Source of the DNA: Acidobacteriota bacterium
GTDB taxonomy: Bacteria; Acidobacteriota; Vicinamibacteria; Marinacidobacterales; SMYC01
Direction of reading: 5' to 3'
Assembly: GCA_004356105.1 (NCBI GenBank)
Contig: SMYC01000026.1
Location: 11,020 to 75,019, forward strand
Length of the DNA stretch: 64,000 nt
Shown: positions 1 through 64,000 of the stretch, piece after piece
How positions within the stretch are numbered: the stretch's first letter is position 1
How the letters are laid out: every line of letters begins with the position of its first letter
The notes under the pieces: generated by a model
The model's input: only the letters and a program-made list of their open reading frames with translations
The model's database searches: none
What the model was told of the DNA's origin: nothing
Position numbers and translations under genes: made by a program

Positions 1-143
1 GTTACGGCCATCGGGTGAGATCGCCATCCGCTCCCTTTCCCTCTGTTGGTGGCCTTCCTGTAGAGGAAGGGCCAGTCGTGTGACGACAGGCGGGCTGGGA
101 CGTGCCAGCCACCAGACCGCCAAGCCGGTGACGAGTATCGCCA

Positions 144-530
144 TTACCCACGCGATCCGCTCTCGGGCTCGACTCGACGGGGGGGCGGCGCACCGTTCCC
201 GCCGACGCGACGGCGGGCTCGTCGAGGATTTATGTCCCAATCGACTGACGACGGTTCTTGCGATCCTTCCTGAGGCATCGGCCCAAGAGGTTCAAGACCC
301 GTGGGTCGAGCCCCGCCGGAAGCGCGTTCCAATCCGGGCACGAGCTCGAGCGCGAGATATTGCGTGCCTTCGAACTGTTCGAGACCGTAGATCGCAGCAA
401 TGTTCGGGTGGTTCAGTGACGCCAGCACCTTCGCCTCGCGCTGGAAGCGTCTCAACCTTTCCGTGTCCTGGGCGAATTCATCGGGAAGTACTTTGATTGC
501 CACGTCCCGGCTGAGCTTTCCATCCCTCGC
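144..530 (-). pseudogene. Ser/Thr protein kinase fragment (N-lobe subdomains I-V only)
   Basis: The translation VYRARDGKLSRDVAIKVLPDEF...RFQREAKVLASLNHPNIAAIYG matches Hanks kinase subdomains II-V. An in-frame TAG lies immediately upstream of VYRA. No Gly-loop and no C-lobe are present. Confidence 0.5.
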
Positions 531-600
531 CCGATAGACCTATCCATGTCGTCCACGGTTTGTCAGGAACGCGTGGCGGCCATAGCCTCGCTTCGTATCT

Positions 601-795
601 TCAAAAAACTTCACGTGAGGGTTGTGTGTCAAGTTCACCGGGCTCCATCGGCGATGGTGCGAGCCTCGTCCACAACACGATGGACGTTTGTGTCGGCTCG
701 CCGGAAGCGACCCCGAGTGTGAACGGGCTTTCGCGAAACCGCGGTCTCGACATGATCGCGGCTGAGACGGCTTTCAAGAAGGCTCGCCGACGCAT
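601..795 (-). pseudogene. PhoD-like alkaline phosphatase N-terminal fragment (Tat signal only)
   Basis: MRRRAFLKAVSAAI...PFTLGVASGEPTQTSIVLWTRLAP matches a Tat signal plus the conserved PhoD N-terminus. Only 64 aa remain before the ORF runs into the kinase fragment. Confidence 0.4.
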
Positions 796-869
796 GGCAA
801 ATAGTATATATGCTGCCCGTGGATGACTAGATAACTTGTATACTGGCGCCCATCTGGGAGGGAGAAGCG

Positions 870-1724
870 ATGAACTCGAAGCATTTCGTTGTGGTTACTG
901 GGCTAGTTGCCGGGCTGGTTGTCGGGCTCGTCACGATGCATGGCTCGCTGAACGCGTCGTCCACGGAAGCTCCGCCGGACGGGGAGCTGTACAACGTGGT
1001 GAAGCAAAAGCTAGCGGACGGCAAGCCCGTCGTCGGGGGCACGGTGTACACGTCGGATCCGAACATCTATTGCGCGATGGCGGATGCCGGGTTCGACTTT
1101 CTGTGGATCGAGATGCAGCACAGCCCGCTCAGCTTTTCCGAGGTCGCGAGGATGATTTGGGCGTGCAAGGACGCGCCGGCGATCCCGTTCATACGCGTGC
1201 CCGATGCGACAGAGGGTGACATTCAAAAAGCGGTCGATATCGGCGCTCTCGGGATCATCGTCCCGATGGTCGATACGGTAGAGGAAGCCGAAGCGGCCGT
1301 ACGTTACGCGAAATATCCGCCCATCGGCCGCAGAAGTCAGGGCGGCGGCCAGTACCGCGCGCTCTGGGGGAAAGATTATCGCCCGACGGCCAACGACAAC
1401 ATCATGATCGTCGTCATGATCGAGACACCTGACGGGATCGCGATCGCGGATCAGATCGCGGCGGTTCCCGGTATCGACGTCGTCTTTGCCGCGAGCGGCG
1501 ACATTGGCAGCTTTACAGGTTACAAGCAGGACGACCCGCGTTACGAAAAGCTCATCGCGAAGATCCACGACGACGTGCTGAAGGCGGGAAAACGACTCGG
1601 TGGCCCGTTCGGGTGGCACGATCGCGAGGGATTCCAGTTCTTTCAAGCTTCGAGCGAGGCCGGCCTCATCAGGGCGGGCGCCAAGAGTCTGCTCGAGACG
1701 ATGAAAGGCGAGTACGAGTACTGA
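870..1724 (+). CDS. HpcH/HpaI family aldolase (2-keto-3-deoxy-acid aldolase), N-terminal TM/signal
   Basis: 284 aa with typical HpcH/HpaI blocks (DFLWIEMQHSP, GIIVPMVDTVEEAEAAV, IMIVVMIETPDGI). A GGGAGGG RBS sits 6 nt upstream of the ATG. Confidence 0.7.
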   Translation: MNSKHFVVVTGLVAGLVVGLVTMHGSLNASSTEAPPDGELYNVVKQKLADGKPVVGGTVYTSDPNIYCAMADAGFDFLWIEMQHSPLSFSEVARMIWACKDAPAIPFIRVPDATEGDIQKAVDIGALGIIVPMVDTVEEAEAAVRYAKYPPIGRRSQGGGQYRALWGKDYRPTANDNIMIVVMIETPDGIAIADQIAAVPGIDVVFAASGDIGSFTGYKQDDPRYEKLIAKIHDDVLKAGKRLGGPFGWHDREGFQFFQASSEAGLIRAGAKSLLETMKGEYEY

Positions 1725-1763
1725 TTGTTGATGCGATATACTCTCGCTCGAGAGGACTAGCAG

Positions 1764-2021
1764 GTGGCGAGGACTTCTAAAGTTGGGCGCAACGATCCCT
1801 GCCCTTGCGGGAGTGGCAAGAAGTACAAGAATTGCTGCGAAGGGAAACGGGGAAAGTTGACGCCTCTCCAATGGGGCGGGCTCGGCTTGCTGGCGGTTGT
1901 CGCGGGAATCCTCGTCTACGTGATGCTCAACGCGGCGACGGGAAGTGCGGGCGGTCTAAGGGGAGCGCGCCGTTGTCCCGCGGGCCAGGTCTGGTCCTCC
2001 CAGCACGGGCATTGCCACTGA
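1764..2021 (+). CDS. SEC-C motif domain small membrane protein
   Basis: [15 protein letters not shown] is the SecA-type SEC-C metal-binding motif. It is followed by one hydrophobic helix. Confidence 0.5.
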
Positions 2022-2045
2022 ACTAGAAACTAGACAGAGAGCTCG

Positions 2046-5285: not shown

Positions 5286-5523
5286 GAACACGACGACCGC
5301 CGGCCTCCGTGTGCGGTAAGATTCGGCCATGGGTCGAGCATGGGGGGTGCCGCCTGGAGCACCGCTGCGGATATTCCTCGTCGCTTGGATCGCCGGCGCC
5401 TTCTTTGCCCGTGCTCCCATCGGTGAACGAGACAATCGTGGAAGGCGCGGCCGTCTGCGCCTTTTTTCGAACGCGTGATGCGAGCTTCCTGCGAGACCGA
5501 TTTCGCGTATTACGCACCGCACA

Positions 5524-5832
5524 GTGCTGTGGGACGGCTCCGCACGGGCGTCATCCGTACGGGAGACATCTGTTTCCGTGGAGCTCGCGGGCGAGCTCGA
5601 CCTTCAGGGGTTTCTCGCCTTGAACGACGCGATTCGTCCCGGCTACCAGAAGATTCGGGGCCGGGTGAAAATCAAGTCTGACGCGGACCCCGAGACGCTC
5701 GAGAAGCTCCGACAAGCCGTCAACGCGCACTGCCCGGTTCTCGACATCATCTCGAACCCGGTACCCCTGTGGAGCTCGAGCTCGTCCACGAAACGGCCGA
5801 GGATGCCGAGCGCGTGCCATCGGCCGGATAAT
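5524..5832 (+). pseudogene. OsmC/Ohr family protein, truncated and frameshifted
   Basis: KIKSDADPETLEKLRQAVNAHCPVLDIISNPVPL matches the OsmC C-terminal block with the conserved CP. The expected ending (ELELVHETAEDAERVPSAG-stop) is in another frame from about 5770. The N-terminal half is missing. Confidence 0.4.
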
Positions 5833-5922
5833 ATCGGGCTTCTGTCCCGCCGGCACTCCATGCGCTTCCAATCCTTCGCATAAGCCGATACCATCCCGCC
5901 GCAAGCACAAGGAGGCTTTCGA

Positions 5923-7095
5923 ATGCGAAGAATTACCCTGACCCTCGTTCTGTTGGTATCGCTGGTCACGCCGGCCGCGGCCGAGGACCACAAAATCATC
6001 GCCCCGCCCGGATCGAGAACCGACCTGCCCTTCAGCCCCGCCGTGATGGCGGGCGACTTTCTCTACTTGTCGGGCTCGCTCTCCGCGGAATCGACGGATA
6101 TCAAGGAGCAGGTCAAGCAGACGCTCGAGAATCTCAAGGCCACGTTGAAAGCCGCGGACATGGATCTTTCACACGTTGTGAGCTCAACCGTTTATTTGTC
6201 CGATGCCCGGTACTTCAGCGCCATGAACGAGGTCTACCGGAGCTACCTCCCCGATGCGCCGCCGGTGCGGGCCACGGTCCAGGCCGACATTGCCATCCCC
6301 GCGGCACTCGTCGAGATCGCCATGATCGCCGTCAAGCCCGGCGTCGAACGTAAAGTCGTGATGCCCGCGGGGGTAACGGAGTGGACCGCGCCCTACAGTC
6401 CGGGGATTATGGCGGGCGACACGTTGTTTACCGCGGGTATGGTGGGACGCAAGCGCGGCGCACCCGCTTCGGAGCAGCCGATGGATGTCGCGGGGCAGAC
6501 GAGACAGGCTCTGGCAAACGTCGAGGCCGTGCTGACCGCGGCGGGCATGAGCAAGACCGACGTGACGTCCTGCAATGTCTATCTCCCGGACGCCCGCCAT
6601 TTCCAGGACATGAACGGCGCTTACCGCGCTTTTTTCTCCGAAGCGCCGCCCGCGCGCGCCACCGTTCGCGCTGGCCTTATGGGCACAGGCCTCCATGTCG
6701 AGATCATGTGTGTCGCCGTCAAGGGCGGAGACCGCCGCATCGTTGGGCCGAGCCGCCCCAATGCCACTCTTTCGCGGGGCATTCGCGTGGGCGACCGCCT
6801 GTTTCTCTCCGGCATTACCGGGCGCGGTCCCGACGGCTACGCGCCCGGCGATGTCAAAGCGCAGACCCGTCAGGCCCTCGAGACCATCAAGGGGCTTCTC
6901 GCGGAAGAGGGGATGGACTTTACCAACGTGGTTCAGGGCCTCGTGTGGGTCACCGATATCCGGGACTTCCAGTCGATGAACGAGATTTACCGCGAGTTTC
7001 TACCCTCGCCTGCGCCCGCCCGCGCGACGGTGGGCTCGCCTCTCATGTCATCGAGCGCTCTCGTGGAAATCATGATGATCGCGGTCGAGCACTAG
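5923..7095 (+). CDS. secreted protein with three tandem RidA/YjgF/TdcF (L-PSP) domains
   Basis: Signal peptide MRRITLTLVLLVSLVTPAAA. There are three ~125-aa repeats, each with the RidA signature (AGDFLYLSG, AGDTLFTAGMVG, VGDRLFLSGITG ... ARATV...VEI). A GGAGG RBS precedes the ATG. Confidence 0.75.
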   Translation: MRRITLTLVLLVSLVTPAAAEDHKIIAPPGSRTDLPFSPAVMAGDFLYLSGSLSAESTDIKEQVKQTLENLKATLKAADMDLSHVVSSTVYLSDARYFSAMNEVYRSYLPDAPPVRATVQADIAIPAALVEIAMIAVKPGVERKVVMPAGVTEWTAPYSPGIMAGDTLFTAGMVGRKRGAPASEQPMDVAGQTRQALANVEAVLTAAGMSKTDVTSCNVYLPDARHFQDMNGAYRAFFSEAPPARATVRAGLMGTGLHVEIMCVAVKGGDRRIVGPSRPNATLSRGIRVGDRLFLSGITGRGPDGYAPGDVKAQTRQALETIKGLLAEEGMDFTNVVQGLVWVTDIRDFQSMNEIYREFLPSPAPARATVGSPLMSSSALVEIMMIAVEH

Positions 7096-7149
7096 CGCCA
7101 GCCGACAAGTCAAACCGCGCCGTGGTGCGGGCTCGTGCATCCATCGGAA

Positions 7150-7330
7150 AAGTAGGTATCGCACCGCGGGCCAACACGGAGACTGCGGAAGACATCTGGA
7201 TGCTAGGTAAGGATGGCGAGCCTCAGCCGTTTGTCGTTACGCGTTTTCGTGAATGGGCCCCGCGTTTTTCTCCCGACGGGCGTTTCCTGGCTTACGTTTC
7301 CAACGAGTCGGGCCGGCACGAGGTGTCCTG
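7150..7330 (+). pseudogene. PD40/TolB-like propeller blade remnant
   Basis: EPQPFVVTRFREWAPRFSPDGRFLAYVSNESGRHEV is a single WD40-like beta-propeller (PD40) blade with no gene context. It ends abruptly where the HNH frame begins. Confidence 0.4.
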
Positions 7331-7659
7331 GTGTGCGCGGCATCGCTGCCGCGGTGAAGCGTTTCGTGTGGAGGCGAGATGGCGGGCAGTGCACATTCGT
7401 TGCGGATGATGGCAGACGATGTCCCGAGCGCAACCGGCTCGAGTACCATCACGACGATCCGTACGGAAAGGGTGGCGATCGTAGTGCGAGCAATGTTCGG
7501 CTCCTATGCAAATGCCACAACCTGTACATGGGCGAGCTGGACTTCGGCAAAGAGAAAATGGACGCGTACCGTCGTTCAGCCGACCGGGTCGGTGAACCGG
7601 TGCCGTCGTTTGAGCTCTGTCCGGGGAGAGTTGAACCTCGCCCACTTGTTGCGATGTAG
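7213..7659 (+). CDS. HNH endonuclease domain protein (DUF222/13E12-type HNH C-terminus), probably a fragment
   Basis: WRRDGGQCTFVADDGRRCPERNRLEYHHDDPYGKGG...NVRLLCKCHN is a canonical HNH motif. The N-terminal 40 aa have no similarity and the true start is uncertain. Confidence 0.5.
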   Translation: MASLSRLSLRVFVNGPRVFLPTGVSWLTFPTSRAGTRCPGVRGIAAAVKRFVWRRDGGQCTFVADDGRRCPERNRLEYHHDDPYGKGGDRSASNVRLLCKCHNLYMGELDFGKEKMDAYRRSADRVGEPVPSFELCPGRVEPRPLVAM

Positions 7660-7783: not shown

Positions 7784-9066
7784 ATGCACCCTTTCAGGAC
7801 CACCTGGCTTCTGGCAGGCTCGATCATCATCATTCTTATCGCCGTCTCATCGGCGTTCAGTCATAGGGGCCACAAAACGCCCGAGAAAGCCGCGGTTGCG
7901 GCGATCGAAACCGAAGGCGCGTCGCCGGCCGGTGCTATCGCCCCGTTCGTGCAGAAGGGCATCGATTGGCTGGCCGCCGCGCGCAGCACGCGGACGGAGG
8001 CTGGGGCGCCGGCTCCCATGCCGCGCAGCGCATCCGCGACCCGCACGCGGTGAAAACCGACCCGGCCACGACGGCGTTTGCGGGGCTTTCACTTCTCCGC
8101 GCCGGTGCGCACCCGGAAGCCGTCAAGCGTGCGACGGACTACGTGGTCCGCGCGGTCGAAGCTGCTCCCGAGGCCGGTCCGCTCATCACCGACATTACCC
8201 GCACGCAGCCCCAGACGAAGCTCGGGCCTTTCATCGACACCGTCCTGACCGTTCAATTCCTTTCGCGCGTTGTCGAGAACCTGCCGGAGGGCAGCGATCG
8301 GATGAAACGGGTTCGCGGCGCGCTCGAAGGATGCGTGAGGAAGCTCCAAGCCGCGCAGCTCACGGACGGAAGCTGGGGTGCCAACAGAGGCTGGGCCCCC
8401 GTGCTCCAGTCTTCGCTGGCCACGTCGGCGCTCGAGATGGCGAGCGTTGCCGAGACCGACGTGAACCCGAAGTCCTTGAGCCGCGCGCGTGATTATCAGA
8501 AAAGCCTCTTCGATGTCGCCACGGGACGCGCTTCGGGCGAGGGGGCCGCGGGCGTCGAGCTCTATTCTCTCGCAAGCGCGAAACGCGCGAACGCAGCCGG
8601 CGCGCGCTACGCGGTGAGAGCGATCGAGGAGGCGATAGCGAAGGGAGACCTTCCCGCCGACGCCGAAGTGAGCGAAGCGAATTTGGACGCCGCCGGAGTA
8701 CCCGCGGGTGTCGCAGGCGGTGTCGCCGAGTCGTTTTTTGCAGCCGACCTGCAAGGGGACAGGCTCGCGAACGACGACGCCCTCTTGCGTGGTTTCGGCT
8801 CGAACGGGGGCGAGGAATATCTCAGTTATATGCAGACGAGCGAGGCGCTCGTGATTGAAGGTGGAGACGCGTGGCTGCAGTGGAAAGAGAAGATGCACTT
8901 CAAGCTCGAGAAGATCCAGAGCCCGGATGGCAGCTGGACCGGACACCACTGCATCACGAGCCCGGTCTTCAGCACGTCGGCGGTGGTACAGACTCTCACC
9001 GCGGACCTCGACGAAGAGCTTCTTCGGAAGGCGGCTACGCTTCTGAGAGAAATGAACGAGCCATGA
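7784..9066 (+). CDS. prenyltransferase/squalene-oxidase repeat (QW-motif, alpha-alpha toroid) protein, TM-anchored, with a frameshift near 7980-8050
   Basis: The N-terminal TM is followed by QKGIDWLAAA. The protein continues in another frame as HADGGWGAGS..., and further QW motifs follow (QLTDGSWGAN, IQSPDGSWTGHH). It can only be read as one protein by changing frame. Confidence 0.6.
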
Positions 9067-10222
9067 GAACGCGCTTGCTCGCGTTCGTGCCGCTTCTGCT
9101 CGCGGGGTGCGGTGTGGGGTCGTCTACCGAGCCGGCGGATCCGGAGGGCATGCTTGGCCGCGCGTGCGCCTACCTCACGAGTCAGCAGGCGGAGGACGGC
9201 GGGTGGCACAGTCAGACCTACGGCCTGGCCCGATCGGGCCAAGCCTGGACTCCGTTCGTCCTGCACGCGCTCCTCGAAGCTTCCGAGAGCCATCCGTCGG
9301 TGCCTCGACCGGACGTCGGGCGCGCACTCGACTTCATTCGTCGACATATTAACGAGGAGGGGGTTCTCGGCCTGGCGGATCCCGACGTGCCTGAATACCC
9401 CAACTACGCGACGGCTTTCGCGCTTCGTTCTGTGGTTCGCGTCGGACGTGAAGAGGACCAACCGCTTGTCGAGCGGATGCGCAGCTTTCTGGCGGCGGAA
9501 CAGTTTCAGGCAGAAAACGGCTACGATGAGACGTCGCTGGCATATGGGAGTTGGGGATTCGGTGGCCCTCGCCCCGAGGGCTCGCCCGGCCACCTGGGTC
9601 TCTCCACACCCGGCACGTTCTCCAGGCGCTCCGGGAGGCGGGGCTTTCCGATCCCAACGTGTACGAACGGGCGCAGGCGTTCTTGCGGCTCGTCCAGCGA
9701 CACCCCGCCGATACGCGACCTCAACCTCCGGTCACCGAAGTCGCCAACGAGAACGTCCCGTACGATGGCGGGTTCTATTTCTCGCCCGTCGTTCTCGAGG
9801 CCAACAAGGGCGCGCTCGTCGAAAGCGAGGACGGCTCGTACTTCGAGAGTTACACCAGCGCTACTTGCGACGGTGTGCTCTCGCTCCTGGAAGCAGGGGT
9901 AGCGAAAGAAGACGAGCGCGTGCTCGCGGCGCGTGAGTGGCTTCAGAGCCATCCGCGTCTCGACTACCCTGAAGGGATCCCGGAAGATGACCCCGAGGCC
10001 TTCGGTGACGCGATCTTCTTCTATCACCTTGCCGCTCGCGCCGAGGTATACGAAGCGCTCGATTGGCCCGGAGACTGGCGCGACGCCATGTCCACGGAGC
10101 TTGCGCCTAGACAGCTCCTGGACGGGAGCTTCGTCAACACGCGAAACCACCTCATGAAGGAGGATGACCCGCTGTTGGCGACCGCACTTGCGGTCATCGC
10201 GCTGACCCGCGCCGCGAGGTGA
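9063..10222 (+). CDS. prenyltransferase/squalene-oxidase repeat lipoprotein (paralog of the upstream gene), with a frameshift near 9580
   Basis: ATGA start/stop overlap with the upstream gene. Lipobox LLLAGCGV. QW motifs QQAEDGGWHSQ and RQLLDGSFVNT. The reading frame changes between SWGFGGPRPEGSPGH and LHTRHVLQALREAGL. Confidence 0.6.
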
Positions 10223-10896: not shown

Positions 10897-11094
10897 TCAC
10901 TCGTAACGCAACGCGACGATCGGATCGACACGCATGGCGCGGCGTGCCGGCACGAAGCTCCCAAGTATCGCCACCACCAGCAGCAATACGATCGGTACGA
11001 CTAGACTAGATGCTTTCTGCCAGCACGGGCCGTTGATCCAGGTAATCTGTGGCAGCTTCGTACGCCATCGCAAACTCGAGCACTTCGCGGTCAT
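10897..11094 (-). pseudogene. ADOP/FtsX-family permease C-terminal remnant
   Basis: LLLVVAILGSFVPARRAMRVDPIVALRYE is the characteristic last TM plus C-terminus of MacB-like ADOP permeases. Only about 35 aa remain. Confidence 0.45.
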
Positions 11095-12655: not shown

Positions 12656-14476
12656 CTATTCGTGCCTGAGAGCGAGCATCGGGTCGAGGCGCGTGGCGCG
12701 CCGGGCGGGCCAGTAGACGGCTCCGAGGGCGACCGTGGCGAGAACGATCGTCGCGAGAAGCAACGTCGTCGCATCGGTCGGCTCGACCCCGTAGAGCGAG
12801 CTCGCAAGAAAGCGGGTCAGCAGGACCGCGCCCACCAGCCCGCCGGCGAGTCCGAGCCAGACCTTCTTCATGGCTTGGCTGACGATGAGCGACACGACGT
12901 TCGCTCGCGAGGCGCCGAGCGCCATGCGAAGGCCCATCTCCCGCGATCGGAGACCCACCGCGAAGGCGATGACACCGTAGATCCCGATCGAGGCCAGTGC
13001 GAGGGCGGCGTCGGCGAACGCTCCCAGGATGATGAGGCTGAAGCGATTCGCTGCCATCGACCCCGCGACCTGGGCGTCGAGCGTGTCGACCGCGTGGATG
13101 GGAAGCTCCGCGTCGGCGAGCTTGAGCTCGTTGCGCACGCGCGGCAACAAAGCCAGCAGGGAATGCTGCGCCTGGCCGGTGCGCAGAATAAATGTTCTCC
13201 AGCTCATCCAGCGCCAAGTGCGTTGGAGCGAAGGCGCGTACATCGCACCTCGCGCCGGCTCGTCGAGCCCGTAATGTTTCGTATCGGCGGCGACGCCCAC
13301 GACTTCGTGCCACGGACCATCCTCTGCGAACGCAATACGCCGTCCCAGCGGATTCTCGTCCGACCAGATGCGCCGCGCCATGGTCTCGTTGATCACGAGA
13401 ACCGGCGTGGACTCCGCGCGGTCGCGCTCGTCGAACGCCCTTCCTTTCAGAAGCGCAATGCCTGTGGCGCGAAAGTAGTCCGGCGATATCGCGCGATAAG
13501 GCATGAGGGTGCGCTCACCTGGCGCGGGTGCGGCTCGTCCTTCGACGAGAAAGCTGCCTGTTGATTCGTTCGTGTTCAGCGGGAGGCTCGTTGTCGCCCC
13601 CACGGTTCGAACCCCGGGGATGGCGCCAAGCTTCTCTTCTAGCTCGCCGTAGAACTGCTCCTGCTGCTGGATGTCTGGGTATCGCGATGGTGGAAGGTAA
13701 AACGACACGGCGAGCGCACCCCTGGGATTGAACCCTGGGTCGACTTGGAGAAGACGCCAGAAACTGTTGAGCAAGAGCCCGGCTCCTGCGAGAAGAACGA
13801 GCGACAGTGCCACCTCGGCGATGACGAGACCACTCCGGACACGCTCTCATAGAACGTGAGGCTCATGCCCAAAGCTCCACCCACGAGCGCCAGGAGAGTG
13901 CTTTCGACGAGAAACTGCTTCAGAAGCTGGTGCCTTCCCGCGCCCATGGCGACCCGGATGGCGGTCTCCCGCTCCCGCGAGCTCGCGCGCGCGAGGAGAA
14001 GATTCGCGACGTTGACGTAGGCAATGAGAAGCACGAGGGCGACCGCACCGAGAAGCACCAGGAGGCGCGTTCGCTCTTGGCGTACGAGATCTTCGTGGAG
14101 TGAGACGACGTTGACACTCCACCCCGTCATCCATTCCGGATGGTCCTCACTCAGGCGCGCCGCGATCGTCGTCATGTCGGCGCGCGCCTCGTCGAGGCTC
14201 ACGCCCGGGCGCCGCCGGCCAACGACACGCAGCATGTGCGCCTTCCGGTTATGCCGGTCGTCGCTGTCGAAACGGCGGGGGAACCCACAGGTCGGCATCA
14301 GACATCACCAGCCGAGACGTGGGCGGAAGCACGCCTACGATCGTGACCGCATCCCCGTCGATGCGAATCGTGCGTCCGATGGCACCGGGGTCAGCGCCGA
14401 AACGGGACGTCCAGAGATCATGGCTCAAGACCGTAACGTAAGGCGCGCCCGTTTCGTGATCCGACTCCACGAACAA
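12656..14476 (-). pseudogene. ADOP/MacB-like ABC transporter permease (FtsX + MacB periplasmic domain), N-terminally truncated with at least two frameshifts
   Basis: Three overlapping ORFs (12656-13813, 13639-14298, 14249-14476) together give the MacB_PCD and both FtsX halves. The C-terminus is RLDPMLALRHE. The first TM/N-terminus is absent. Confidence 0.6.
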
Positions 14477-14585
14477 CCGTCCGTGAGCCGGCCGTGCAAT
14501 AGCTCAGAAGAGAGGCCTTGTCAAGCAGCCCACGACTTTCCCGCGGATGAAAAGAAACTCACCCGCCGTCGGCTACGCGCGTTTG

Positions 14586-15379: not shown

Positions 15380-15793
15380 TTAGTTCGACGGACCGCCTTC
15401 GAGCTCGGCGGACCAGTTTTCCACGACGACGAGCACAGCTTCCTCAGCCGCGGCAATCATCACGAGACGGTCCCCATCGGGATGGACGTCGTAGGGTGGC
15501 GCGTCAAAAGTGCCGCTAACCGACGACAAGAACACGTCCGCTTCTTCAGCAGTAAAACGCGGCTCAGGCTTGTCCGCTTGGAACACTGACCCGGTGGTCA
15601 CGGGAACTCGCATCAACCGGTTCTCCTCCACGTAGAACAGCGCCGCTTCGTCTTCTTCGATGGAGTGGATCGTCGCAATATTGGGATGATTCAACTTCGC
15701 GGCCGCCTCGGCTTCCGTTCGAAAGCGGCGCAGGCGCTCGGGATCGTGGCGCAGATCCTCGGGCAGGAACTTGATCGCTACCTCGCGCTTCAT
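15380..15793 (-). pseudogene. internally deleted Ser/Thr kinase-PD40 propeller gene remnant
   Basis: Kinase subdomains II-IV ([10 protein letters not shown]...[11 protein letters not shown]) are joined directly to the last propeller blade and the family C-terminus ([12 protein letters not shown]...[11 protein letters not shown]). Confidence 0.55.
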
Positions 15794-15940
15794 CTTGGTG
15801 TCTTCGGCGAGGTAGACCTCACCCAGGCCACCGCTTCCTAGCTTTCGAAGGATTTGTAGTGCGAGAGCGTGCGACCCATCATAGCGAGGAGAAGCTATTG
15901 CACCAGCGCAGGAATGTAAAGCGACCCTCCTGGTCGTCGA

Positions 15941-16799: not shown

Positions 16800-16800
16800 A

Positions 16801-47670: not shown

Positions 47671-52168
<4,498 letters not shown>

Positions 52169-54633: not shown

Positions 54634-54835
54634 CGCGCTCTAGGACGAAACGCGCGCGGTCCGTTTGGCGGGCTGAAGGTCGAGCCCTTCAGCCCGCCGC
54701 GTAGAAAATGGACTCAGTAGCGTGATGACGTAAACATGACGTCGGCGAGAGCCCAGGCTTTACGAAATCGCCCTTCGACGGCGCGTTGTGGGCGTAGGAC
54801 GGCATCATGTAATTGTCAGCGCCCCTCTCCGCGAT

Positions 54836-55290
54836 TTAGCGCTCGTAGACCACGACCGCATCAATATTAGAGTCGACGGCCTTCTTGTATTGCCCCACCT
54901 GGAGATAAATGTGTCCCGGCATGTGCTGTAAGTGGGCGACGCCAGGCATCGAAGCGCCGAGTCGATCCGCGAACGGGACGGCACGGTCGGGATTCGGCGA
55001 GGCTTCGACGGTGTGGATGTAGTAGTGGGTCGCGCCCGAGTGGTCGGGATTGCGCGCGCGCACCGATTCGAGGCGCTCCACCGTTTCTTGGGTGCCCTTG
55101 CGTGGATCGCCCTGTTCATCCCAGTAGTTCTACCGGTGGGTGTTCATGATGGATGCGGCCGATAGAGTCGCCGCATCGAGATCGTCGTAAAGCTTGACGT
55201 CCGGCGCCGTCGTCGCTTCCGAACCGTTGGCGATGGTACCTGCCAACAGCAGACCAAAAGTTGCCACGAGTACTGTGCGTGGTCGCATGG
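54836..55290 (-). pseudogene. small secreted protein fragment (signal peptide + conserved HxYxHxxExSxxP...HMPxHIY segment), frameshifted and truncated
   Basis: The signal ORF MRPRTVLVATFGLLLAGTIANG (55288 downward) ends at a stop. The +1 frame continues ...NPDHSGATHYYIHTVEASPNPDRAVPF...HLQHMPGHIYLQVGQY and then stops. Confidence 0.35.
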
Positions 55291-56046: not shown

Positions 56047-56049
56047 GCT

Positions 56050-56643
56050 TAACCTCCTGTGTCGCAAATTAGCAAACACCGAGCTAAGACGCAAATTTTC
56101 TTCTCCTTGGTGATTTGTCCCGGTACCATAGCCACGACCGCTACCGCTGCTAGGACTTTCTACTCGGTCTGGACTAAGTTGGACTCGCGAAGACGATCCG
56201 CCGAAACGTAGTAAACGGGAAAGGCTCGGAGACATGATCATCGGAGCGTCGGTATTGATCCATGACTCCCTTCCCAAAGCCGCGGGCTTCACCGGAGTGG
56301 TCTTGGGCGGAGCCGCAGCTTCAACTGCGTCTGGACGCAGTTCCACCGCGGGCACCGGCTTGGACGGTTCACGAGGTACCGGCAGCTTGCGCATGGTCGA
56401 TGGGACGTCCGGCTTGGGTGCAATCTCGGCAACCAGCTCCTCGATCTTCCGTTTGGTCTTATGCTTCGCCCGAGCCAGGAGGTCATCGCGATTCGCCTCG
56501 GTGAGAACAGGCGCCAGCTTGGCAATGACGCTCAAGTGTAGGCGACCATCCTGAAGCATCGGTAAAATCGCCGGATGCTTACGCGGCACGAGCAACCCCG
56601 ATGCGCAAATAAGTTTCGGCCTCCGACAAGTGCAGCCTGTCAT
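56050..56643 (-). other. in-frame upstream extension with weak DUF222-like (13E12-repeat/HNH family N-terminus) resemblance; probable remnant
   Basis: LQDGRLHLSVIAKLAPVLTEANRDDLLARAKHKTKRKIEEL resembles DUF222 helical repeats. It is continuous with the downstream ORF by chance of frame. No RBS of its own. Confidence 0.25.
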
Positions 56644-57015
56644 CTCTCAGTGCAGTAGACGAACATCGACGGCGACGCCTCGGTGCGAGCATATAACCGA
56701 CGCCGGTCGACTTCGCCGATATGCGCGACCAGCTCGGCCTCGACGCGCCGCGACTCTTTCAAAATCTGCGACAGCTTCGCCGACGTCCGTATCGCGTGAC
56801 GGTCGCCTCGTTGCGTTCAGGGGAAACGCATCCAGAGACCCGAAGTGAACGTCCCATGAGAGAGGCAACCAGAACGACGCATCCGGGTCTTGGTCGAACG
56901 GCTGGAGCTCGACATTCTCGATACCGGCCCGACGATAGTGGTCGACCGCCCATCGGATCGTCTCGCTGCTCGAAGGAAAACATGAGCGTCGTGGACACGG
57001 CTCTCCGCCGCGAAG

Positions 57016-58116: not shown

Positions 58117-58334
58117 CACACCCTCCATCTCTTCTCCACGCCACGTCGCATTCTACCCCCGATCGGGCCCGGGCGGCGAGCGCATGCTCTATCCCGAGTT
58201 CCGAGAAGCTGGGTGACATAGCCTGACGACAAATATCTCGCTCCGGCAGGCGTTCTCGAAAGCGTGGTCAGGTCCGATTGCTCGCAGCGGAGTACTTGAA
58301 AGGGCCGAGCAAATCGCGTTCGAAGGGGGAGCGA

Positions 58335-58446
58335 CCACGATGACGCTGCACGTGTTCCAGACGAACCAGCGCGCGGTAGCGTTGTATGAACGCAGGGGCT
58401 ATTCCGCGGAGTGGATCCGCTACATCAAACCGCTTCGCGGAGGGTA
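58335..58446 (+). pseudogene. GNAT acetyltransferase C-terminal fragment
   Basis: ...TLHVFQTNQRAVALYERRGYSAEWIRYIKP matches the GNAT motif B / C-terminal beta strand. Only about 37 aa remain. Confidence 0.35.
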
Positions 58447-58574
58447 GAGCTCCTAATTCCGGTGATTCGCAGCTACGACATCTCCCTGGACGGTGAGAAG
58501 CAGCACGTGCCTGCCGAAGACTGACCCAGTCGCTCCGGTCGGCGCCCTTGGACCACTCCCAATATCGCCGGTTT

Positions 58575-59753
58575 TCACTCCGCGCTGGCCACCGTCACCG
58601 CAAACGGCACCGACAATGCTTTTTCTAACGTGAAGCGCCTCTCCGCCTTGAACCACGCGCCGGTGCTCGATTGAGCTTCTCTCTCGATCTTGAGCGTATC
58701 GCCGTCACGGGTCACTTCACGGGAGCCGGTCACGGACGCACCACTTCGTCCGGTGATGGTCGTGTCGGTGGTGCGTTGATTCCCTTCGGTCCGTTGCGTC
58801 GAGTCGACGGTGCGGCCGCGCCGGGTCGTGCCACTCACGTTGCCGTCCGGCCGTGAGTAGCGCACCGAGCCGCGTGAGCGGTTCCTCCTCCGCTGGGCAA
58901 GGGAAGGGCGTGAACCAGGCGCTGTTCTCGTACAGGTAGCTTCCCGACTCACGGGTTCGGAATAGCAGGCCCCTGGCGGTGGCCTTGCCGACGGCCACCG
59001 CATCTTCGAGGATTACTTGCATCCACGCATCGGGCTCGAAGGGTTTGCCCTTCTGAATGCCGATGCTGGCGAGAGAGCCCCGCAGCTCTGGGTCGATAAA
59101 GCCTATAGCTCACGATCGATCACCGTATGAAGCTCCTCGTAGAACTGGGAATTATTCGCATGGATGGTATTGAACGCGACCGTGGAGCCGTTGATGAACT
59201 CCATCGCGCGCGGGTTTTGCGCCTGCGATAAAGGATAAACTTTCAGGCTCTCGCGAAACATCTGCGATGCCACGTCAGGCTTACCGTCCACCAGGAAGCC
59301 CCTGAGGATGAGCCAGTTGATGTAAGACGGCGAGCTCGCGGTGAAGTAGCCTTCCGGAACCTCGCCCACGTATCCGAGCGGAAGGATCAGATAATTGCCA
59401 CCTTAACCCTTATCCGGTCCTGGGAAGCCCATGACGAACCGAAAGAACGCATCGTTCACGGTGCCCGGACCGCTTCCAGGCGGGATCTCCACCACGGTCG
59501 GTCCATCGCGGTCTAGATCCAGGACCACCGAGGCGTACACGGTGTCTGTGTTGCCGGTGAGGAAGAGGGGGTTCGAATCCATCAAGCGGTCCAGGAGCAC
59601 GACCTGGTTGGACCGCGTCGCGCCCATCTCCACCATGCCGCGTCGTATGGCCTCGATCGACGAGGCAGGAATGAAATTCAGAAATGCTTCGACCCCGCGC
59701 ATGAAATCCAAGTTGTCATAGACTTTCCACCGTCTCGTCGCTGGGTAGCCCAT
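58575..59753 (-). pseudogene. DUF1254/DUF1214 family protein, fragmented (multiple frameshifts, N-terminus missing)
   Basis: ORF 59403-59753 has the DUF1254 core (GNTDTVYASVVLDLDRDGPTVVEIP). ORFs 59103-59369 and 58717-59022 give the DUF1214 part in different frames. Confidence 0.5.
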
Positions 59754-59962
59754 CGAAAAACTCCAGAGTTCCGATCCGGGTCTCCACCTTGTCCGGCGTC
59801 ATGATCTCGGGGGGGATTCTGTTGTTGTAGCCGTCCGTCGGCTGCGCATTGGCGTCATCCATCGTGCACCCGACGGAAAACCACAACGCTGCCGCTAGGC
59901 TAGAGTCAGAACGAAAACCATCGTGCCTGCCAAAGCATTTTCTTGTCTCCCAGAATCATTAC

Positions 59963-62210: not shown

Positions 62211-62274
62211 CGATTGGGACTTGACCCGGTAGGCGGGTACAGGGTGTATATTAGGATGCGGAGTTAGAGAAACC

Positions 62275-62937
62275 ATGAGCTCAGAAGAAATCAGCAAAGC
62301 ATCCCCAGGAGGCGACGCCAGTTGTTGCGAGGTCGGCGCCGAACCGAAATCGCGCGCGGGCACCCTGGGGGCGGTTTCCGCGGCGTTCGCGTCCGTATGC
62401 TGTGGCCTTCCCCTTTTGTTGATTGCCTTCGGGCTGGGCGGGCTGGGTTTCGGAAGTGTCCTCGGGAAGTATCACTGGTATTTCACCGGCGTGGGCATCG
62501 TGCTTCTCACCGCCGCGTGGTTCGTTTTCTTGAGAGAGCAGTCCCGGCTGCGAGCCGCGGGTTCCGAGATACGAAACGCGCGCCTCACACCGGTCCTTCT
62601 CGGTATCGCGACGGTTGCGGTTCTCGGATTCGGTGCGCTCAACGTTTCGAGCGCTCTTGGGCTCGGGTCGAAAGCCCGAGAGGTTGCCCAGGCCGCGTCG
62701 AGCTCATCCGGCGAGATGGCGCAAGTCGTCCTGTCCGTTGAGGGCATGACTTGCGTCACGTGCGAGTGGGGTATCGAGAAAGCCCTCGGGAAGCTCAACG
62801 GCGTGATCGAAGCGAAAGCGAGCTCCTCGGAACATAAGGTTCTCGTGCGCTATGAGCCGGGGGAAGTGACCTTCGAACAAATGATTGAAGCGGTGGACTC
62901 CACAGGATACAAGGCCTCGATGCCGAACCCGTCGTAG
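62275..62937 (+). CDS. merT: MerT-like membrane transporter fused to a C-terminal MerP-like HMA domain
   Basis: TM1 carries the vicinal Cys pair (ASVCCGLPLLLIAFG) like MerT ACCLGPLVL. The C-terminus is VLSVEGMTCVTCEWGIEKALGKLNGV (HMA, GMTCxxC). Confidence 0.65.
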   Translation: MSSEEISKASPGGDASCCEVGAEPKSRAGTLGAVSAAFASVCCGLPLLLIAFGLGGLGFGSVLGKYHWYFTGVGIVLLTAAWFVFLREQSRLRAAGSEIRNARLTPVLLGIATVAVLGFGALNVSSALGLGSKAREVAQAASSSSGEMAQVVLSVEGMTCVTCEWGIEKALGKLNGVIEAKASSSEHKVLVRYEPGEVTFEQMIEAVDSTGYKASMPNPS

Positions 62938-62951
62938 AACCGTAGACAACG

Positions 62952-63464
62952 ATGAGCGATTGCTGCAGGACAGCCGAACCTTCGGCCGCCGCGAACGACC
63001 GATGCCAGCGCTGCGGTGAGAAAGGACGCAGGGTACTCCGCGAGACCATGGAGAGTCTGTTGAAGCCGGAAGCTCTCGAGCGTTTCGCGGACGAGCCCTA
63101 TTTTTTTGACCGCACCCCCTCATGCGACGTCGTCTACTTCTCCAATGAAGCCCAGTCCTATTTCGACAAGGACGAGCTTTCCGTGCGCGTAGGCTTGAAA
63201 GAGACAGAGTCTCCCATCGCGCTGTGCTACTGTTTTGGCCATACTGCGGAGTCTGTCCGCGAGGAAATCGTGGCCAAAGGTCGCTCGACCACTGCCGAGA
63301 GGATCACGGCAGAGGTCCAGGCGGGGAACTGTTCCTGCGAGACGAAAAATCCGTCGGGCAAGTGCTGCCTCGGCGAAGTGTATGGGGCGGTCCAACGGAT
63401 CCAGAAAGAGCTATCGCCGGAAGAGCTGCAGGAAGAGCCCGTGACTCTAATGGAGAGAGGATAA
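62952..63464 (+). CDS. Cys-rich putative metal/FeS-binding protein
   Basis: MSDCCRTA...CQRCGEKG at the N-terminus. ALCYCFGHTAESVREEI...AGNCSCETKNPSGKCCLGEV resembles a BFD-like [2Fe-2S] CxC...CxxC arrangement. Family unknown. Confidence 0.45.
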   Translation: MSDCCRTAEPSAAANDRCQRCGEKGRRVLRETMESLLKPEALERFADEPYFFDRTPSCDVVYFSNEAQSYFDKDELSVRVGLKETESPIALCYCFGHTAESVREEIVAKGRSTTAERITAEVQAGNCSCETKNPSGKCCLGEVYGAVQRIQKELSPEELQEEPVTLMERG

Positions 63465-63470
63465 GAATTA

Positions 63471-63767
63471 ATGATAAAAAAGAGCGTTCTCTTGTTCTTG
63501 GTAACGCTTGTAGCGTTCTCCATGAGTCTCGCGTTCGGGGCCGAGGGGCCCAAGGAGGTCGAGCTCGAAATCAGCGGCATGACGTGAACCGGCTGCGCCG
63601 CGGCGGTCAAAGCCGCGCTCGAGAAAGTAGAAGGCTGCGAAGAAGCGAAGGCTGATTGGGAAAAGGGCTTAGCCTGGGCGAAGTACGATCCCGACAAGAC
63701 CAACCCGGAAGAGCTCGTCAAAGCCGTAAACGAGAACACCGCGTTCGAAGCCAAGCTCCCCTAGCTG
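63471..63767 (+). CDS. merP: periplasmic MerP-like HMA protein with in-frame TGA at the first Cys of the metal-binding motif (candidate selenoprotein or pseudogene)
   Basis: Signal peptide MIKKSVLLFLVTLVAFSMSLAFGA. EVELEISGMT-[TGA]-TGCAAAVKAALEKVEGC continues in frame for 60 more codons to a TAG. The TGA at 63585-63587 replaces the first Cys of GMTCxxC. Confidence 0.5.
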
Positions 63768-63803
63768 GGTAGGTTCGTCGAAGAAGAGCCACAGGCCACA
63801 GGA

Positions 63804-64000
63804 ATGACACGTCTCTCTCTGCTCGTCACCATCGCCATCGCGGTCGCGTTCGGAAGCTCGCCGCTCGAAGCCCATCCGGGCCACAAACATCTCGTGGCCG
63901 CTTCAGCCGTTGCTGCGTCCGGCGCTCGGTCCGCAGTTCCCGGCGGGATAAGCGGCCAGGGGGCCATGCGCTTCCGGGTTCTCTACACGAGCGAGCGACT
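63804..64000 (+). CDS. secreted His-rich protein, 5' partial (continues beyond window)
   Basis: MTRLSLLVTIAIAVAFGSSPLEAHPGHKHL... is a signal peptide. The ORF is open to the window end. Confidence 0.3.
   Translation, partial: MTRLSLLVTIAIAVAFGSSPLEAHPGHKHLVAASAVAASGARSAVPGGISGQGAMRFRVLYTSER

What the first reader, a model, noticed from the sequence alone, without database searches (positions are those of the whole stretch)
1..64000. Exceptional density of frameshifted genes and short gene remnants
At least ten recognisable genes need one or more frame changes to be read. These are the prenyltransferase-repeat paralogs, ADOP permease, SRPBCC, amidohydrolase, PD40 propeller, hybrid kinase, OsmC, DUF1254/1214, and the small TPR-like protein. 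At least ten more are bare fragments: kinase, PhoD, HNH, ADOP tail, DUF4143, RtcR, GNAT, HK paralog, and the kinase-propeller mini-fusion. This is either ongoing pseudogenisation of large paralogous families (kinase-propeller and ADOP families are massively expanded in Acidobacteria) or indel-prone sequencing. The two explanations have very different biological meaning.
Basis: seen in the sequence. Interest (0 to 1): 0.55.

Follow-up and report, generated by a model that had tools for sequence, protein, structure and literature searches.

The report
Real gene decay, not sequencing error
About a third of the recognisable genes in this 64-kb stretch of a deep-sea-trench acidobacterium are truly broken or reduced to scraps; the same breaks appear in four other independent short-read assemblies, and related genomes have broken the same genes in different ways, so this is real ongoing gene decay, not a sequencing artefact.

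Summary
Against about 36 intact genes I count 10 multiply or singly disabled genes and 12 confirmed gene fragments. That is roughly 38% of recognisable loci, compared with the 1-5% usually reported for prokaryotes.

The sequencing-error reading is rejected. Four public assemblies (two JGI samples, one ENA MEGAHIT assembly, one Logan assembly of an Illumina 2x150 oceanic-trench run) reproduce window 1-63751. They differ by 32 SNPs and have no indel at all. Only one of about 11 mapped small frameshifts lies in a homopolymer of 5 or more. The lesions also include three nonsense codons and many deletions of 100 nt to kb scale.

Related genomes are Candidatus Marinacidobacterales (Vicinamibacteria), one with a 10.2-Mb chromosome. 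One relative keeps both prenyltransferase-repeat genes intact, which pins the window's lesions to a 2-nt insertion at 7978-7979 and a 1-nt deletion at 9603/9604. Other relatives break the same genes, and genes that are intact here, at different positions. Broken genes still show a third-codon-position excess, so most inactivations appear recent.

This is a known kind of phenomenon at an unusual density in an unexpected organism. I could not test whether the decay is genome-wide. One in-frame TGA (63585-63587) is probably selenocysteine rather than a lesion.

The parts
7784..9066 (+). Prenyltransferase/squalene-cyclase-repeat gene 1, pseudogene. One 2-nt (CG) insertion at 7978-7979 splits it into 89-aa and 338-aa ORFs.
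   Evidence: The Pfam hit rises from 35 to 50 bits after repair and crosses the junction.
9063..10222 (+). Prenyltransferase-repeat gene 2, pseudogene. One 1-nt deletion at 9603/9604 (CCC to CC).
   Evidence: The intact 383-aa orthologue in L103 maps to two window frames. DNA alignments to L103 and L014 place the missing base.
12656..14503 (-). ADOP-type (MacB_PCD/FtsX) permease pseudogene. It is 5'-truncated, has a frame change ~14278 in a C5 run, and has a ~200-nt deletion at 13846/13849 that removes half of the first FtsX domain.
   Evidence: tblastn with homologues P0010, P0018, P0047 and P0070 gives three pieces in frames -1, -2, -1. P0123 retains the deleted 68 residues. Pfam FtsX covers only 3-67/120 and MacB_PCD only 110-206/207.
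15944..16431 (-). SRPBCC/AHSA1-like pseudogene. Frame change ~16295; the C-terminal half is no longer alignable.
   Evidence: There is a weak AHSA1 hit. Neither ORF alone hits anything.
23849..24951 (-). Amidohydrolase pseudogene. Frame change ~24805, an internal loss of about 65 profile positions, and the metal-binding HxH motif reads HTD.
   Evidence: Pfam Amidohydro_1 covers only 75-344/345, before and after repair. L022 and L103 keep only the last 189 nt of this gene.
34568..36274 (-). PD40 beta-propeller half of a kinase-propeller gene. The kinase half is missing, and two frame changes (~35587 and ~35426) bracket a 150-nt out-of-frame stretch that contains a TGA.
   Evidence: Three-frame reading and junction coordinates. 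It aligns only to residues 353-896 of the 902-aa kinase-PD40 protein of L103. Four other assemblies have the same sequence.
47671..52168 (+). CHASE3 x5 / HAMP / HisKA / HATPase / receiver / receiver hybrid histidine kinase. One extra nucleotide at 51622 cuts the first receiver at profile position 84/111.
   Evidence: Pfam. Junction reconstruction. Homologues align over 84-98% of the repaired C-terminus. JGI calls a 1391-aa and a 113-aa gene here.
58903..59862 (-). DUF1254/DUF1214 pseudogene. Frame changes ~59720 and ~59106, an in-frame TAA at 59403-59405, and 3' truncation.
   Evidence: Two same-frame ORFs hit DUF1254 at 2-71 and 75-133.
54692..55288 (-). TPR-like ('HYYIH...HMPGHIY' motif) pseudogene. 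In-frame TAG at 55130-55132 and TAA at 54836-54838; the length suggests internal and 3' loss.
   Evidence: One reading frame carries a signal peptide and conserved motifs, interrupted by two stops. Family assignment is weak: only marginal TPR hits.
56181..56777 (-). HNH-family pseudogene. Four frame changes, and residues 232-371 are lost.
   Evidence: tblastn with the intact 444-aa homologue from L103 gives five pieces in three frames. Gene callers fuse it to the downstream secreted-protein gene as one 416-aa ORF.
221..596 (-). Ser/Thr kinase fragment: residues 7-94, plus 242-279 in another frame.
   Evidence: Pfam Pkinase 15-82/263; tblastn with the L103 kinase.
637..795 (-). PhoD fragment: the first 53 of 390 residues.
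   Evidence: tblastn with the intact PhoD of L022, 89% identity.
5423..5546 (+). Last ~41 codons of a 400-aa gene that is intact in relative L014.
   Evidence: DNA and tblastn matches to L014 ORF 8177-9379.
5566..5883 (+). OsmC-like remnant, C-terminal two thirds only.
   Evidence: Pfam OsmC 36-98/100. L014 carries the same remnant with three further deletions of 1, 17 and 2 nt.
7091..7201 (-). 2'-5' RNA ligase tail: the last 37 residues.
   Evidence: tblastn with L022 and L014 proteins.
7172..7326 (+). PD40 propeller fragment of about 50 residues.
   Evidence: 96% DNA identity to L022 and L103; tblastn.
7327..7659 (+). HNH-family C-terminal fragment: residues 302-396 of 444.
   Evidence: Pfam HNH, weak; tblastn with the L103 444-aa homologue, 63% identity.
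10900..11013 (-). ADOP permease tail: the last 19-38 residues.
   Evidence: tblastn with four ADOP homologues and P0123.
15398..15889 (-). Kinase-propeller deletion remnant: residues 2-90 fused to 817-895 of a ~900-aa protein.
   Evidence: Pfam Pkinase 2-78/263; tblastn with the L103 902-aa protein.
19678..20505 (-). Histidine-kinase remnant: HATPase_c plus receiver positions 44-110 only. No HisKA and no sensor domain.
   Evidence: Pfam; paralogous to the hybrid kinase.
37454..37873 (-). RtcR fragment upstream of intact rtcB-rtcA.
   Evidence: NCBIfam NF038308 RtcR positions 330-400/530, E 1e-22; PDB NtrC1 alignment.
58217..58447 (+). GNAT acetyltransferase tail.
   Evidence: Pfam Acetyltransf_1 80-116/116.
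34231..34518 (-). Family not confirmed.
   Evidence: No Pfam or NCBIfam hit at E <= 0.1. Codon bias is positive.
63471..63764 (+). Not a pseudogene: a secreted HMA-domain gene with an in-frame TGA at 63585-63587 in place of the first Cys of GMTCxxC. Probable selenoprotein.
   Evidence: Codon and context. A hairpin with a GGUCAAA loop starts 11 nt after the TGA. The best NCBIfam hit is 'metal-binding (seleno)protein' NF041115.

Best explanation
The breaks are real mutations fixed in the genome of a hadal-trench population of Candidatus Marinacidobacterales (Acidobacteriota, Vicinamibacteria). The window records ongoing gene decay in a rearrangement-prone stretch of a large genome.

Shown: genes are disabled by three kinds of event. 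These are small indels in short repeats (a CG duplication, CCC to CC, one C5 run), nonsense substitutions (TAA, TAG), and deletions of about 100 nt to several kb that leave N- or C-terminal stubs.

Shown: the same region in four related genomes is also littered with broken genes. The lesions there are mostly at different sites, and sometimes in genes that are intact here.

Inferred: purifying selection on many accessory genes is weak in this clade, and DNA removal is slow enough that all stages of decay coexist, from single-lesion genes through multi-lesion genes to stubs. Because broken genes still carry an excess of third-codon-position differences, most inactivations appear younger than most of the 6-12% divergence from the relatives.
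For: 1. Reproducibility. JGI 3300009030, JGI 3300024431, ENA ERZ27251149 (k141 = MEGAHIT naming) and Logan SRR6057749 together cover window 1-63751 at 99.95-99.99% identity with 0 gaps. The 32 SNPs show at least three distinct consensus sequences, so these are not copies of one assembly. SRR6057749 is a 150-bp paired-end trench metagenome (PMC11136905).

2. Lesion types that indel-prone sequencing cannot produce. TAA at 59403-59405, and TAG and TAA in the TPR-like gene. A ~200-nt deletion in ADOP. Stubs of PhoD, RtcR, kinase and HNH genes.

3. Only 1 of about 11 mapped frameshift sites contains a run of 5 or more; none contains a run of 6 or more.

4. Intact orthologues exist. L103 has prenyl1 (412 aa) and prenyl2 (383 aa) whole, differing from the window by one frameshifting indel each.

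5. Independent lesions in relatives. The ADOP deletion in L022 has different end points, and L022 has two further frame changes. Prenyl1 is broken differently in P0249 and P0250. L014 has a 128-nt deletion in the aminotransferase and a 4-nt deletion in the triple-RidA gene. L022 has a split HpcH gene. L022 and L103 keep only 189 nt of the amidohydrolase.

6. Third-position share of substitutions is 0.49-0.73 in broken genes and 0.67-0.80 in intact ones, against 0.33 expected under neutrality.
Against: - I could not see raw reads. Site-level support and within-population polymorphism at the lesions are untested.
- The four public assemblies may share samples or reads. The ENA, JGI 3300024431 and Logan consensus sequences share SNPs.
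- Some 1-nt differences in the long-read relative L014 sit in G6-G8 runs and could be its own errors. For that reason I rely on its larger deletions and on L022 and L103.
- Whether the decay is genome-wide or confined to this plastic region is unknown. Only about 4 kb beyond the window was available.
- The timing argument from codon positions is rough. Intact but fast-evolving genes, such as the TPR-like gene, also give 0.49.
Confidence: 0.87

Rival explanations
1. Sequencing or assembly artefact: an indel-prone platform or poor consensus introduced the frame changes.
For: Metagenome-assembled sequence. One frameshift (~14278) lies in a C5 run. The long-read relative L014 shows possible homopolymer errors.
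Against: Zero indels between the window and four other short-read assemblies made with different assemblers, across 63.7 kb. The reads of at least one are Illumina 2x150. Nonsense codons, large deletions and gene stubs are not indel errors. Ten of about 11 mapped sites are not in homopolymers of 5 or more.
Confidence: 0.03
2. A local 'junkyard': the decay is confined to a variable, island-like region built from failed horizontal transfers and rearrangement scars, while the rest of the genome has an ordinary pseudogene load.
For: Gene order differs among the window, L014, L022 and L103. A 10-kb block (10852-20871) is absent between the TPR-like and M20 genes in all three relatives. Two toxin-antitoxin pairs and HNH remnants lie in the window, and a transposase lies in L022. 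The 4 kb upstream of the window holds only intact-looking genes. Liu et al. link many prokaryotic pseudogenes to failed transfers.
Against: Dead loci are spread over the whole 64 kb, from 0.2 to 59.9 kb, and are interleaved with conserved syntenic housekeeping-type genes (rtcBA, feoAB, DUF1552/1592). Most broken genes have the host's codon bias. Relatives also break syntenic core-like genes (aminotransferase, HpcH, triple RidA).
Confidence: 0.3
3. Functional recoding: the interrupted genes are still expressed whole, through programmed frameshifting, stop-codon read-through or selenocysteine insertion, or they work as split proteins.
For: One in-frame TGA (63585-63587) replaces the first Cys of a CxxC metal site and is followed by a hairpin. 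This is very probably selenocysteine. The hybrid kinase has a single lesion, and its downstream receiver has its own ATG.
Against: No shared slippery motif at the junctions. Most genes carry several lesions plus deletions of essential parts (half an FtsX domain, the HxH site, the kinase domain). The lesions are not conserved in relatives, which have the genes either intact or broken elsewhere. TAA and TAG stops are not selenocysteine codons.
Confidence: 0.04
4. Chimeric consensus of co-existing strains: assemblers stitched together strain variants that differ by indels, creating frames that no single cell has.
For: SNP-level microdiversity exists among the assemblies.
Against: Five consensus sequences from different samples and assemblers agree on every indel state. 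Only 32 SNPs in 64 kb means very low diversity. Large deletions and stubs cannot arise this way.
Confidence: 0.03

Closest known systems
Pseudogene-rich genomes of recently host-restricted bacteria (Mycobacterium leprae, Sodalis glossinidius, Serratia symbiotica, Shigella); established knowledge, e.g. PMC3056288 and PMC3218036 listed
   Same: A high share of disabled genes. The lesions are a mix of small frameshifts, nonsense codons and deletions. All stages of decay coexist. Related lineages lose the same genes in parallel and independently.
   Different: The organism comes from hadal-trench metagenomes, and no host is known. The relatives' genomes are very large (a 10.2-Mb chromosome), not shrinking. 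No IS expansion is visible in the window. The genome-wide extent was not measured here.
Ordinary background of prokaryotic pseudogenes (Liu et al. 2004, PMC522871; Kuo and Ochman 2010, PMC2916853)
   Same: The same kinds of disabling events. Large families such as ABC-type transporters and kinases contribute many pseudogenes.
   Different: The density is roughly ten-fold higher: about 38% of loci here against 1-5%. Older stubs persist beside young single-lesion genes. By my recollection of Kuo and Ochman, which I did not re-read here, bacterial pseudogenes are usually removed quickly.
Expanded ADOP permease and kinase-propeller paralog families of Acidobacteria (established knowledge from Acidobacteria genome papers; not re-verified here)
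   Same: Members of both families are present, and several of the dead loci belong to them.
   Different: Family expansion alone does not explain the pattern. At least half of the dead loci are from small or single-copy families.
Bacterial selenoproteins with a UxxC metal site (HMA domains of ZntA-type ATPases, mercuric reductase, MerT, CopZ-like proteins; PMC9312934)
   Same: For the single locus 63471-63764 only: TGA aligned to the first Cys of CxxC, a downstream hairpin, and a mer/cop-like operon context.
   Different: This applies to that one locus and not to the finding as a whole. Selenocysteine machinery was not looked for.

Membership tests
Bacterial pseudogene (disabled copy of a functional gene) | Clear homology to a protein family or to an intact orthologue | tested here: met
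   Pfam, NCBIfam or PDB hits, or tblastn with intact homologues, for 22 of 23 candidate loci. The 'DUF4143' ORF failed.
Bacterial pseudogene (disabled copy of a functional gene) | A disabling lesion relative to an intact orthologue (frameshift, nonsense codon, truncation) | tested here: met
   Mapped to the exact base for prenyl1 and prenyl2 against L103. ADOP was mapped against P0123. The others are mapped to within a few nt by frame junctions.
Bacterial pseudogene (disabled copy of a functional gene) | The lesion is present in the DNA of the organism, not only in one assembly | tested here: met
   Zero indel differences across four other assemblies. Raw reads were not available.
Bacterial pseudogene (disabled copy of a functional gene) | Loss of function, or no full-length product | not testable with these tools
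   Needs transcript or protein data. It is inferred from the loss of essential parts: the FtsX half, the HxH site, the receiver beta5 Lys region, and the kinase domain.
Sequencing artefact (homopolymer indel errors) | Frameshifts concentrated in long homopolymers | tested here: not met
   One of about 11 sites is in a run of 5; none is in a run of 6 or more. The window has only 20 runs of 6 or more.
Sequencing artefact (homopolymer indel errors) | Frameshifts not reproducible between independent assemblies or platforms | tested here: not met
   All are reproduced.
Programmed ribosomal frameshift | A slippery motif at the shift site, and conservation of the shift in orthologues | tested here: not met
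   No common motif. Orthologues are unshifted (L103) or shifted elsewhere.
Genome decay of a host-restricted or bottlenecked lineage | A genome-wide pseudogene share well above 10% | not testable with these tools
   Only this region, in five related genomes, could be read.
Genome decay of a host-restricted or bottlenecked lineage | A known host association or recent change of lifestyle | not tested
   The window's population comes from trench metagenomes. The origin of the relatives' samples was not retrievable. No literature exists on the order.
Selenoprotein gene (locus 63471-63764 only) | In-frame UGA aligned to a redox or metal-binding Cys in homologues | tested here: met
   GMT-TGA-TGC versus the GMTCxxC of HMA domains. 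With Cys substituted, the best hit is NF041115, 'metal-binding (seleno)protein'.
Selenoprotein gene (locus 63471-63764 only) | A bacterial SECIS hairpin just downstream of the UGA | tested here: inconclusive
   A 6-bp GC stem with a GGUCAAA loop starts 11 nt after the UGA. Its folding energy is not better than shuffled sequence (z = -0.12).
Selenoprotein gene (locus 63471-63764 only) | selA/selB/selC/selD present in the genome | not testable with these tools
   Not in the window: no tRNA was found and there was no Rfam hit.

The most novel reading that the evidence does not exclude
The decay is genome-wide and clade-wide. On this reading, Candidatus Marinacidobacterales are marine acidobacteria with very large genomes (a 10.2-Mb chromosome) that carry a pseudogene load comparable to recently host-restricted symbionts. 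Closely related lineages are inactivating the same genes in parallel. That would imply either a recent lifestyle shift or bottleneck (for example an unrecognised host or particle association; a conserved secreted ankyrin-repeat protein sits in the window), or an unusually weak deletion bias and low effective population size in the deep sea.
Probability: 0.35. Interest if true: 0.65.

Novelty: new member of a known kind. Interest (0 to 1): 0.45.

Why it matters
The result settles the practical question. These frameshifts should be annotated as pseudogenes, not 'polished' away. Gene-content or metabolic inferences for this lineage that count ORF fragments as genes will be inflated.

Biologically, a roughly ten-fold excess of dead genes is not what is expected of a free-living bacterium with a large genome, particularly when it is reproduced in several related genomes with independent lesions. 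If it holds genome-wide, this clade would be a natural system for studying early gene decay, deletion bias and effective population size in deep-sea microbes. The many orthologous loci caught at different stages of decay would support that.

The work also shows that not every in-frame stop here is a lesion: one is a probable selenocysteine codon.

Tried and rejected
- ORF-length coverage as a proxy for pseudogene load in the window, relatives and unrelated loci did not discriminate. High GC content creates long spurious ORFs.
- The metagenome scan with the conserved unknown protein 57019-58128 returned only distant relatives (64% identity or less), so it gave no orthologous locus for the right half of the window.
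- The protein search with the repaired kinase C-terminus found no close orthologue. It only confirmed that the HATPase-receiver-receiver architecture is common.
- P0001 could not be located on a contig. The source MAG is known only through accession TDI47937.1.
- L012 and L013 are not syntenic beyond the triple-RidA gene.
- Window paralogs were too distant to map lesions, for example the two amidohydrolases at 29% identity.
- Rfam found nothing in the window.
- Literature searches for the order name, the JGI sample number, and pseudogenes in hadal Acidobacteriota returned nothing.
- An alternative genetic code was considered and rejected. All three stop codons end long, full-length conserved genes, and the in-frame stops are TAA, TAG and TGA.
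- The idea that the ADOP deletion is ancestral was considered and rejected, because the end points differ between the window and L022.

Full report
**What the window is.** The sequence has 62% G+C, no tRNA gene and no Rfam match. I trained a codon-bias model on the long ORFs and listed the best-scoring stop-to-stop ORFs. I then scanned 60 of them against Pfam.

About 36 genes look complete. They include an HpcH aldolase, an aminotransferase, a solute-binding protein, a triple-RidA fusion, an amidase, an S9 peptidase and an M20 peptidase. They also include an ankyrin-repeat protein, DUF1552 and DUF1592-family proteins, GDPD, an M81 peptidase, RtcB and RtcA, FeoA and FeoB, DUF5916, a second amidohydrolase, a TPR protein, a PALP enzyme and a MerR/MerT-HMA/CopZ cluster. 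Two toxin-antitoxin pairs and several proteins of unknown function complete the list.

**Checking the observation.** Between the intact genes lie many ORFs that match only part of a family profile, or whose continuation is in another frame. I mapped each case by three-frame reading and by junction coordinates.

Ten genes are disabled but largely present:
- Prenyltransferase-repeat gene 1: 2-nt insertion at 7978-7979.
- Prenyltransferase-repeat gene 2: 1-nt deletion at 9603/9604.
- ADOP permease: 5' truncation, a frame change ~14278, and a ~200-nt deletion at 13846/13849.
- SRPBCC protein: frame change ~16295, with the rest unalignable.
- Amidohydrolase: frame change ~24805, about 65 residues missing, and the HxH motif degraded.
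- PD40 propeller: kinase half missing, with frame changes ~35587 and ~35426.
- CHASE3 hybrid kinase: one extra base at 51622.
- DUF1254/1214 gene: two frame changes, a TAA, and 3' truncation.
- A TPR-like gene: in-frame TAG and TAA.
- An HNH-family gene: four frame changes and an internal deletion.

Twelve further loci are stubs: a kinase, PhoD, the tail of a 400-aa gene, OsmC, an RNA ligase, a PD40 piece, HNH, an ADOP tail, a kinase-propeller deletion remnant, a histidine-kinase remnant, RtcR and GNAT.

OsmC is a truncated remnant, not a frameshifted gene. The small TPR-like gene at 10268-10840 is intact. The 'DUF4143' label could not be confirmed.

Roughly 22 dead loci against 36 intact is about 38%. 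A survey of 64 prokaryotic genomes found 1-5% (PMC522871).

**Artefact or real.** Exact-protein look-ups found the same locus in four public assemblies: JGI 3300009030, JGI 3300024431, ENA ERZ27251149 (contig k141_1791923, 74.7 kb) and Logan SRR6057749. Aligned to the window, they cover positions 1-63751 at 99.95-99.99% identity with no gap at all.

The 32 SNPs fall into patterns that show at least three different consensus sequences. At three sites every public assembly covering the site disagrees with the window, so the window is a fifth assembly. It probably comes from the NCBI MAG that carries protein TDI47937.1.

SRR6057749 is listed among public oceanic-trench metagenomes with 150-bp paired-end reads (PMC11136905). 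That is short-read chemistry, which is not indel-prone.

Only one of about 11 mapped frameshift sites contains a homopolymer of 5, and none contains a longer one. Three lesions are nonsense substitutions, and many are deletions of hundreds of bases or more. Indel-prone sequencing cannot explain this.

**Relatives.** A genome-collection scan with the triple-RidA protein found three close relatives. These include two Candidatus Marinacidobacterales MAGs (class Vicinamibacteria), one of which is a 10.2-Mb chromosome (OZ253507.1, locus L014). Two further relatives came from protein hits: L022 (a 0.5-Mb contig) and L103 (a 1.28-Mb contig at 36x). They share 86-94% nucleotide identity with the window in syntenic blocks, but gene order differs among all four.

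L103 keeps both prenyltransferase-repeat genes intact and adjacent (412 and 383 aa). Against it the window differs by exactly one frameshifting indel in each gene.

The relatives are themselves full of broken genes, mostly at other positions:
- L022 has an independent ADOP deletion with different end points, and two further frame changes. A fifth population (P0123) still has the deleted segment.
- Two other relatives break prenyl1 at other sites (P0249 and P0250).
- L014 has a 128-nt deletion in the aminotransferase, a 4-nt deletion in the triple-RidA gene, and three extra deletions in the shared OsmC remnant.
- L022 splits HpcH and truncates the aminotransferase by a different lesion from L014's, although the two are 97% identical.
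- L022 and L103 retain only the last 189 nt of the amidohydrolase, which is merely frameshifted here.
- L103 has amidase and ADOP fragments and a split kinase-propeller gene.

Some single-base differences in L014 lie in G6-G8 runs and may be its own errors, so I give weight to the larger lesions and to L022 and L103.

**Timing.** For pairs of orthologous sequences I counted substitutions by codon position. Intact genes give a third-position share of 0.67-0.80. Broken genes give 0.49-0.73 (ADOP 0.63-0.73, prenyl2 0.59-0.64, prenyl1 0.49, OsmC remnant 0.43). Neutral evolution would give 0.33.

Most broken genes therefore spent most of the divergence time under selection, which points to recent and still ongoing inactivation. 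The stubs and the OsmC remnant look older. This is a rough measure, because one intact gene (the TPR-like gene) also gives 0.49.

**How it most likely works.**
- Shown: the lesions are real, fixed or nearly fixed in the sampled populations, heterogeneous in type, and independent between related lineages.
- Inferred: selection on many accessory genes in this clade is weak. Small slippage events in short repeats, point mutations, and deletions (at least one between short direct repeats) disable the genes. Removal of dead DNA is slow enough that all stages of decay coexist.
- Unknown: whether this reflects a genome-wide state or a local plastic region. In favour of a local effect are the extensive rearrangements, a 10-kb block peculiar to the window, the toxin-antitoxin pairs, and the mobile-element remnants. 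Against a purely local effect, dead loci are spread across the entire 64 kb among conserved syntenic genes, and they mostly have host-like codon usage.

**Comparison with what is known.** The pattern resembles the early genome decay of recently host-restricted bacteria. Here the source is a trench metagenome, no host is known, and the relatives' genomes are very large. It is a known kind of phenomenon at an unusual density in an unexpected organism. I found no literature on this order or on pseudogenes in hadal Acidobacteriota.

**A caveat found on the way.** The in-frame TGA at 63585-63587 replaces the first cysteine of the GMTCxxC motif of a secreted HMA-domain protein in the mer/cop-like cluster. 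It is followed by a GC hairpin with a GGUCAAA loop. With Cys substituted, the protein's best NCBIfam match is 'metal-binding (seleno)protein'. UxxC selenoproteins of this type are known (PMC9312934). This locus is probably a selenoprotein gene and is not counted as decay.

**Verdict.** The sequencing-error reading is rejected. Real, ongoing pseudogenisation is the best explanation (confidence about 0.87). Interest is moderate, and it would rise if a genome-wide census showed the same load across the clade.

Noticed in passing
window 63471-63764 (+): A secreted HMA-domain gene has an in-frame TGA (63585-63587) exactly where the first Cys of GMTCxxC should be, followed by a GC hairpin with a GGUCAAA loop. 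With Cys substituted, the best NCBIfam hit is 'metal-binding (seleno)protein' NF041115. It is probably a UxxC selenoprotein that gene callers truncate to 38 aa.
   Followed up: partly
window 10852-20871: A 10-kb block lies between the TPR-like and M20 genes, which are directly adjacent in L014, L022 and L103. The block holds an amidase, the ADOP pseudogene, PemK/RHH, the kinase remnant, the SRPBCC pseudogene, ArsR, an S9 peptidase, VapBC and the HK remnant. Gene order differs among all four genomes.
   Followed up: partly
window 47609-48561; L001 and L002 19724-19844: Two short-read contigs end by jumping from 47609 to 48561, skipping 951 nt inside the five-fold CHASE3 repeat of the hybrid kinase. 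The JGI contig L011 spans the region without a gap, so this looks like a repeat-induced contig-end artefact, not a real deletion.
   Followed up: partly
L022 9560-9590 versus window 13846-13869: The ADOP deletion in L022 lies between two near-identical short direct repeats (GCACTG(C)TGTCGCTCG, encoding ALLSLA and ALSLVL). That suggests slippage or illegitimate recombination. The window's deletion in the same gene has different end points.
   Followed up: partly
L014 13665 and 14542 (equivalent to window 9895 and 10801): The 10.2-Mb chromosome has 1-nt insertions in G6-G8 runs that are absent from its 97%-identical relative L022 and from the window. These may be long-read consensus errors, so single-base lesions in that record should be treated with caution.
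   Followed up: partly
window 5923-7095 (+): A single 390-aa protein is made of three tandem RidA/L-PSP domains behind a signal-like N-terminus. It is conserved at 92-95% in three relatives; L014 has a 4-nt deletion in it.
   Followed up: no
window 24991-26748 (-): A 585-aa ankyrin-repeat protein with a signal-like N-terminus is conserved and intact in L022 and L103 (about 95% nt identity). Eukaryote-like repeat proteins of this kind are often discussed in host-associated bacteria, which might bear on lifestyle.
   Followed up: no
window 57016-58128 (-): A 370-aa protein with no Pfam or NCBIfam family has hundreds of relatives (41-64% identity) in soil, freshwater and marine metagenomes. It appears to be a widespread uncharacterised family.
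   Followed up: no
window 14586-15151 (-) and 18968-19587 (-): There are two toxin-antitoxin pairs: PemK-like with RHH, and a VapC PIN domain with a DUF6364-like antitoxin. The PemK call is only 78 aa, and the PIN motif reads LLET instead of the usual LLDT.
   Followed up: no
window 55345-56595 (-): Gene callers report one 416-aa ORF here. It is a chance in-frame fusion of the HNH-family pseudogene remnant with a real secreted-protein gene of about 230 aa that starts near 56046.
   Followed up: partly
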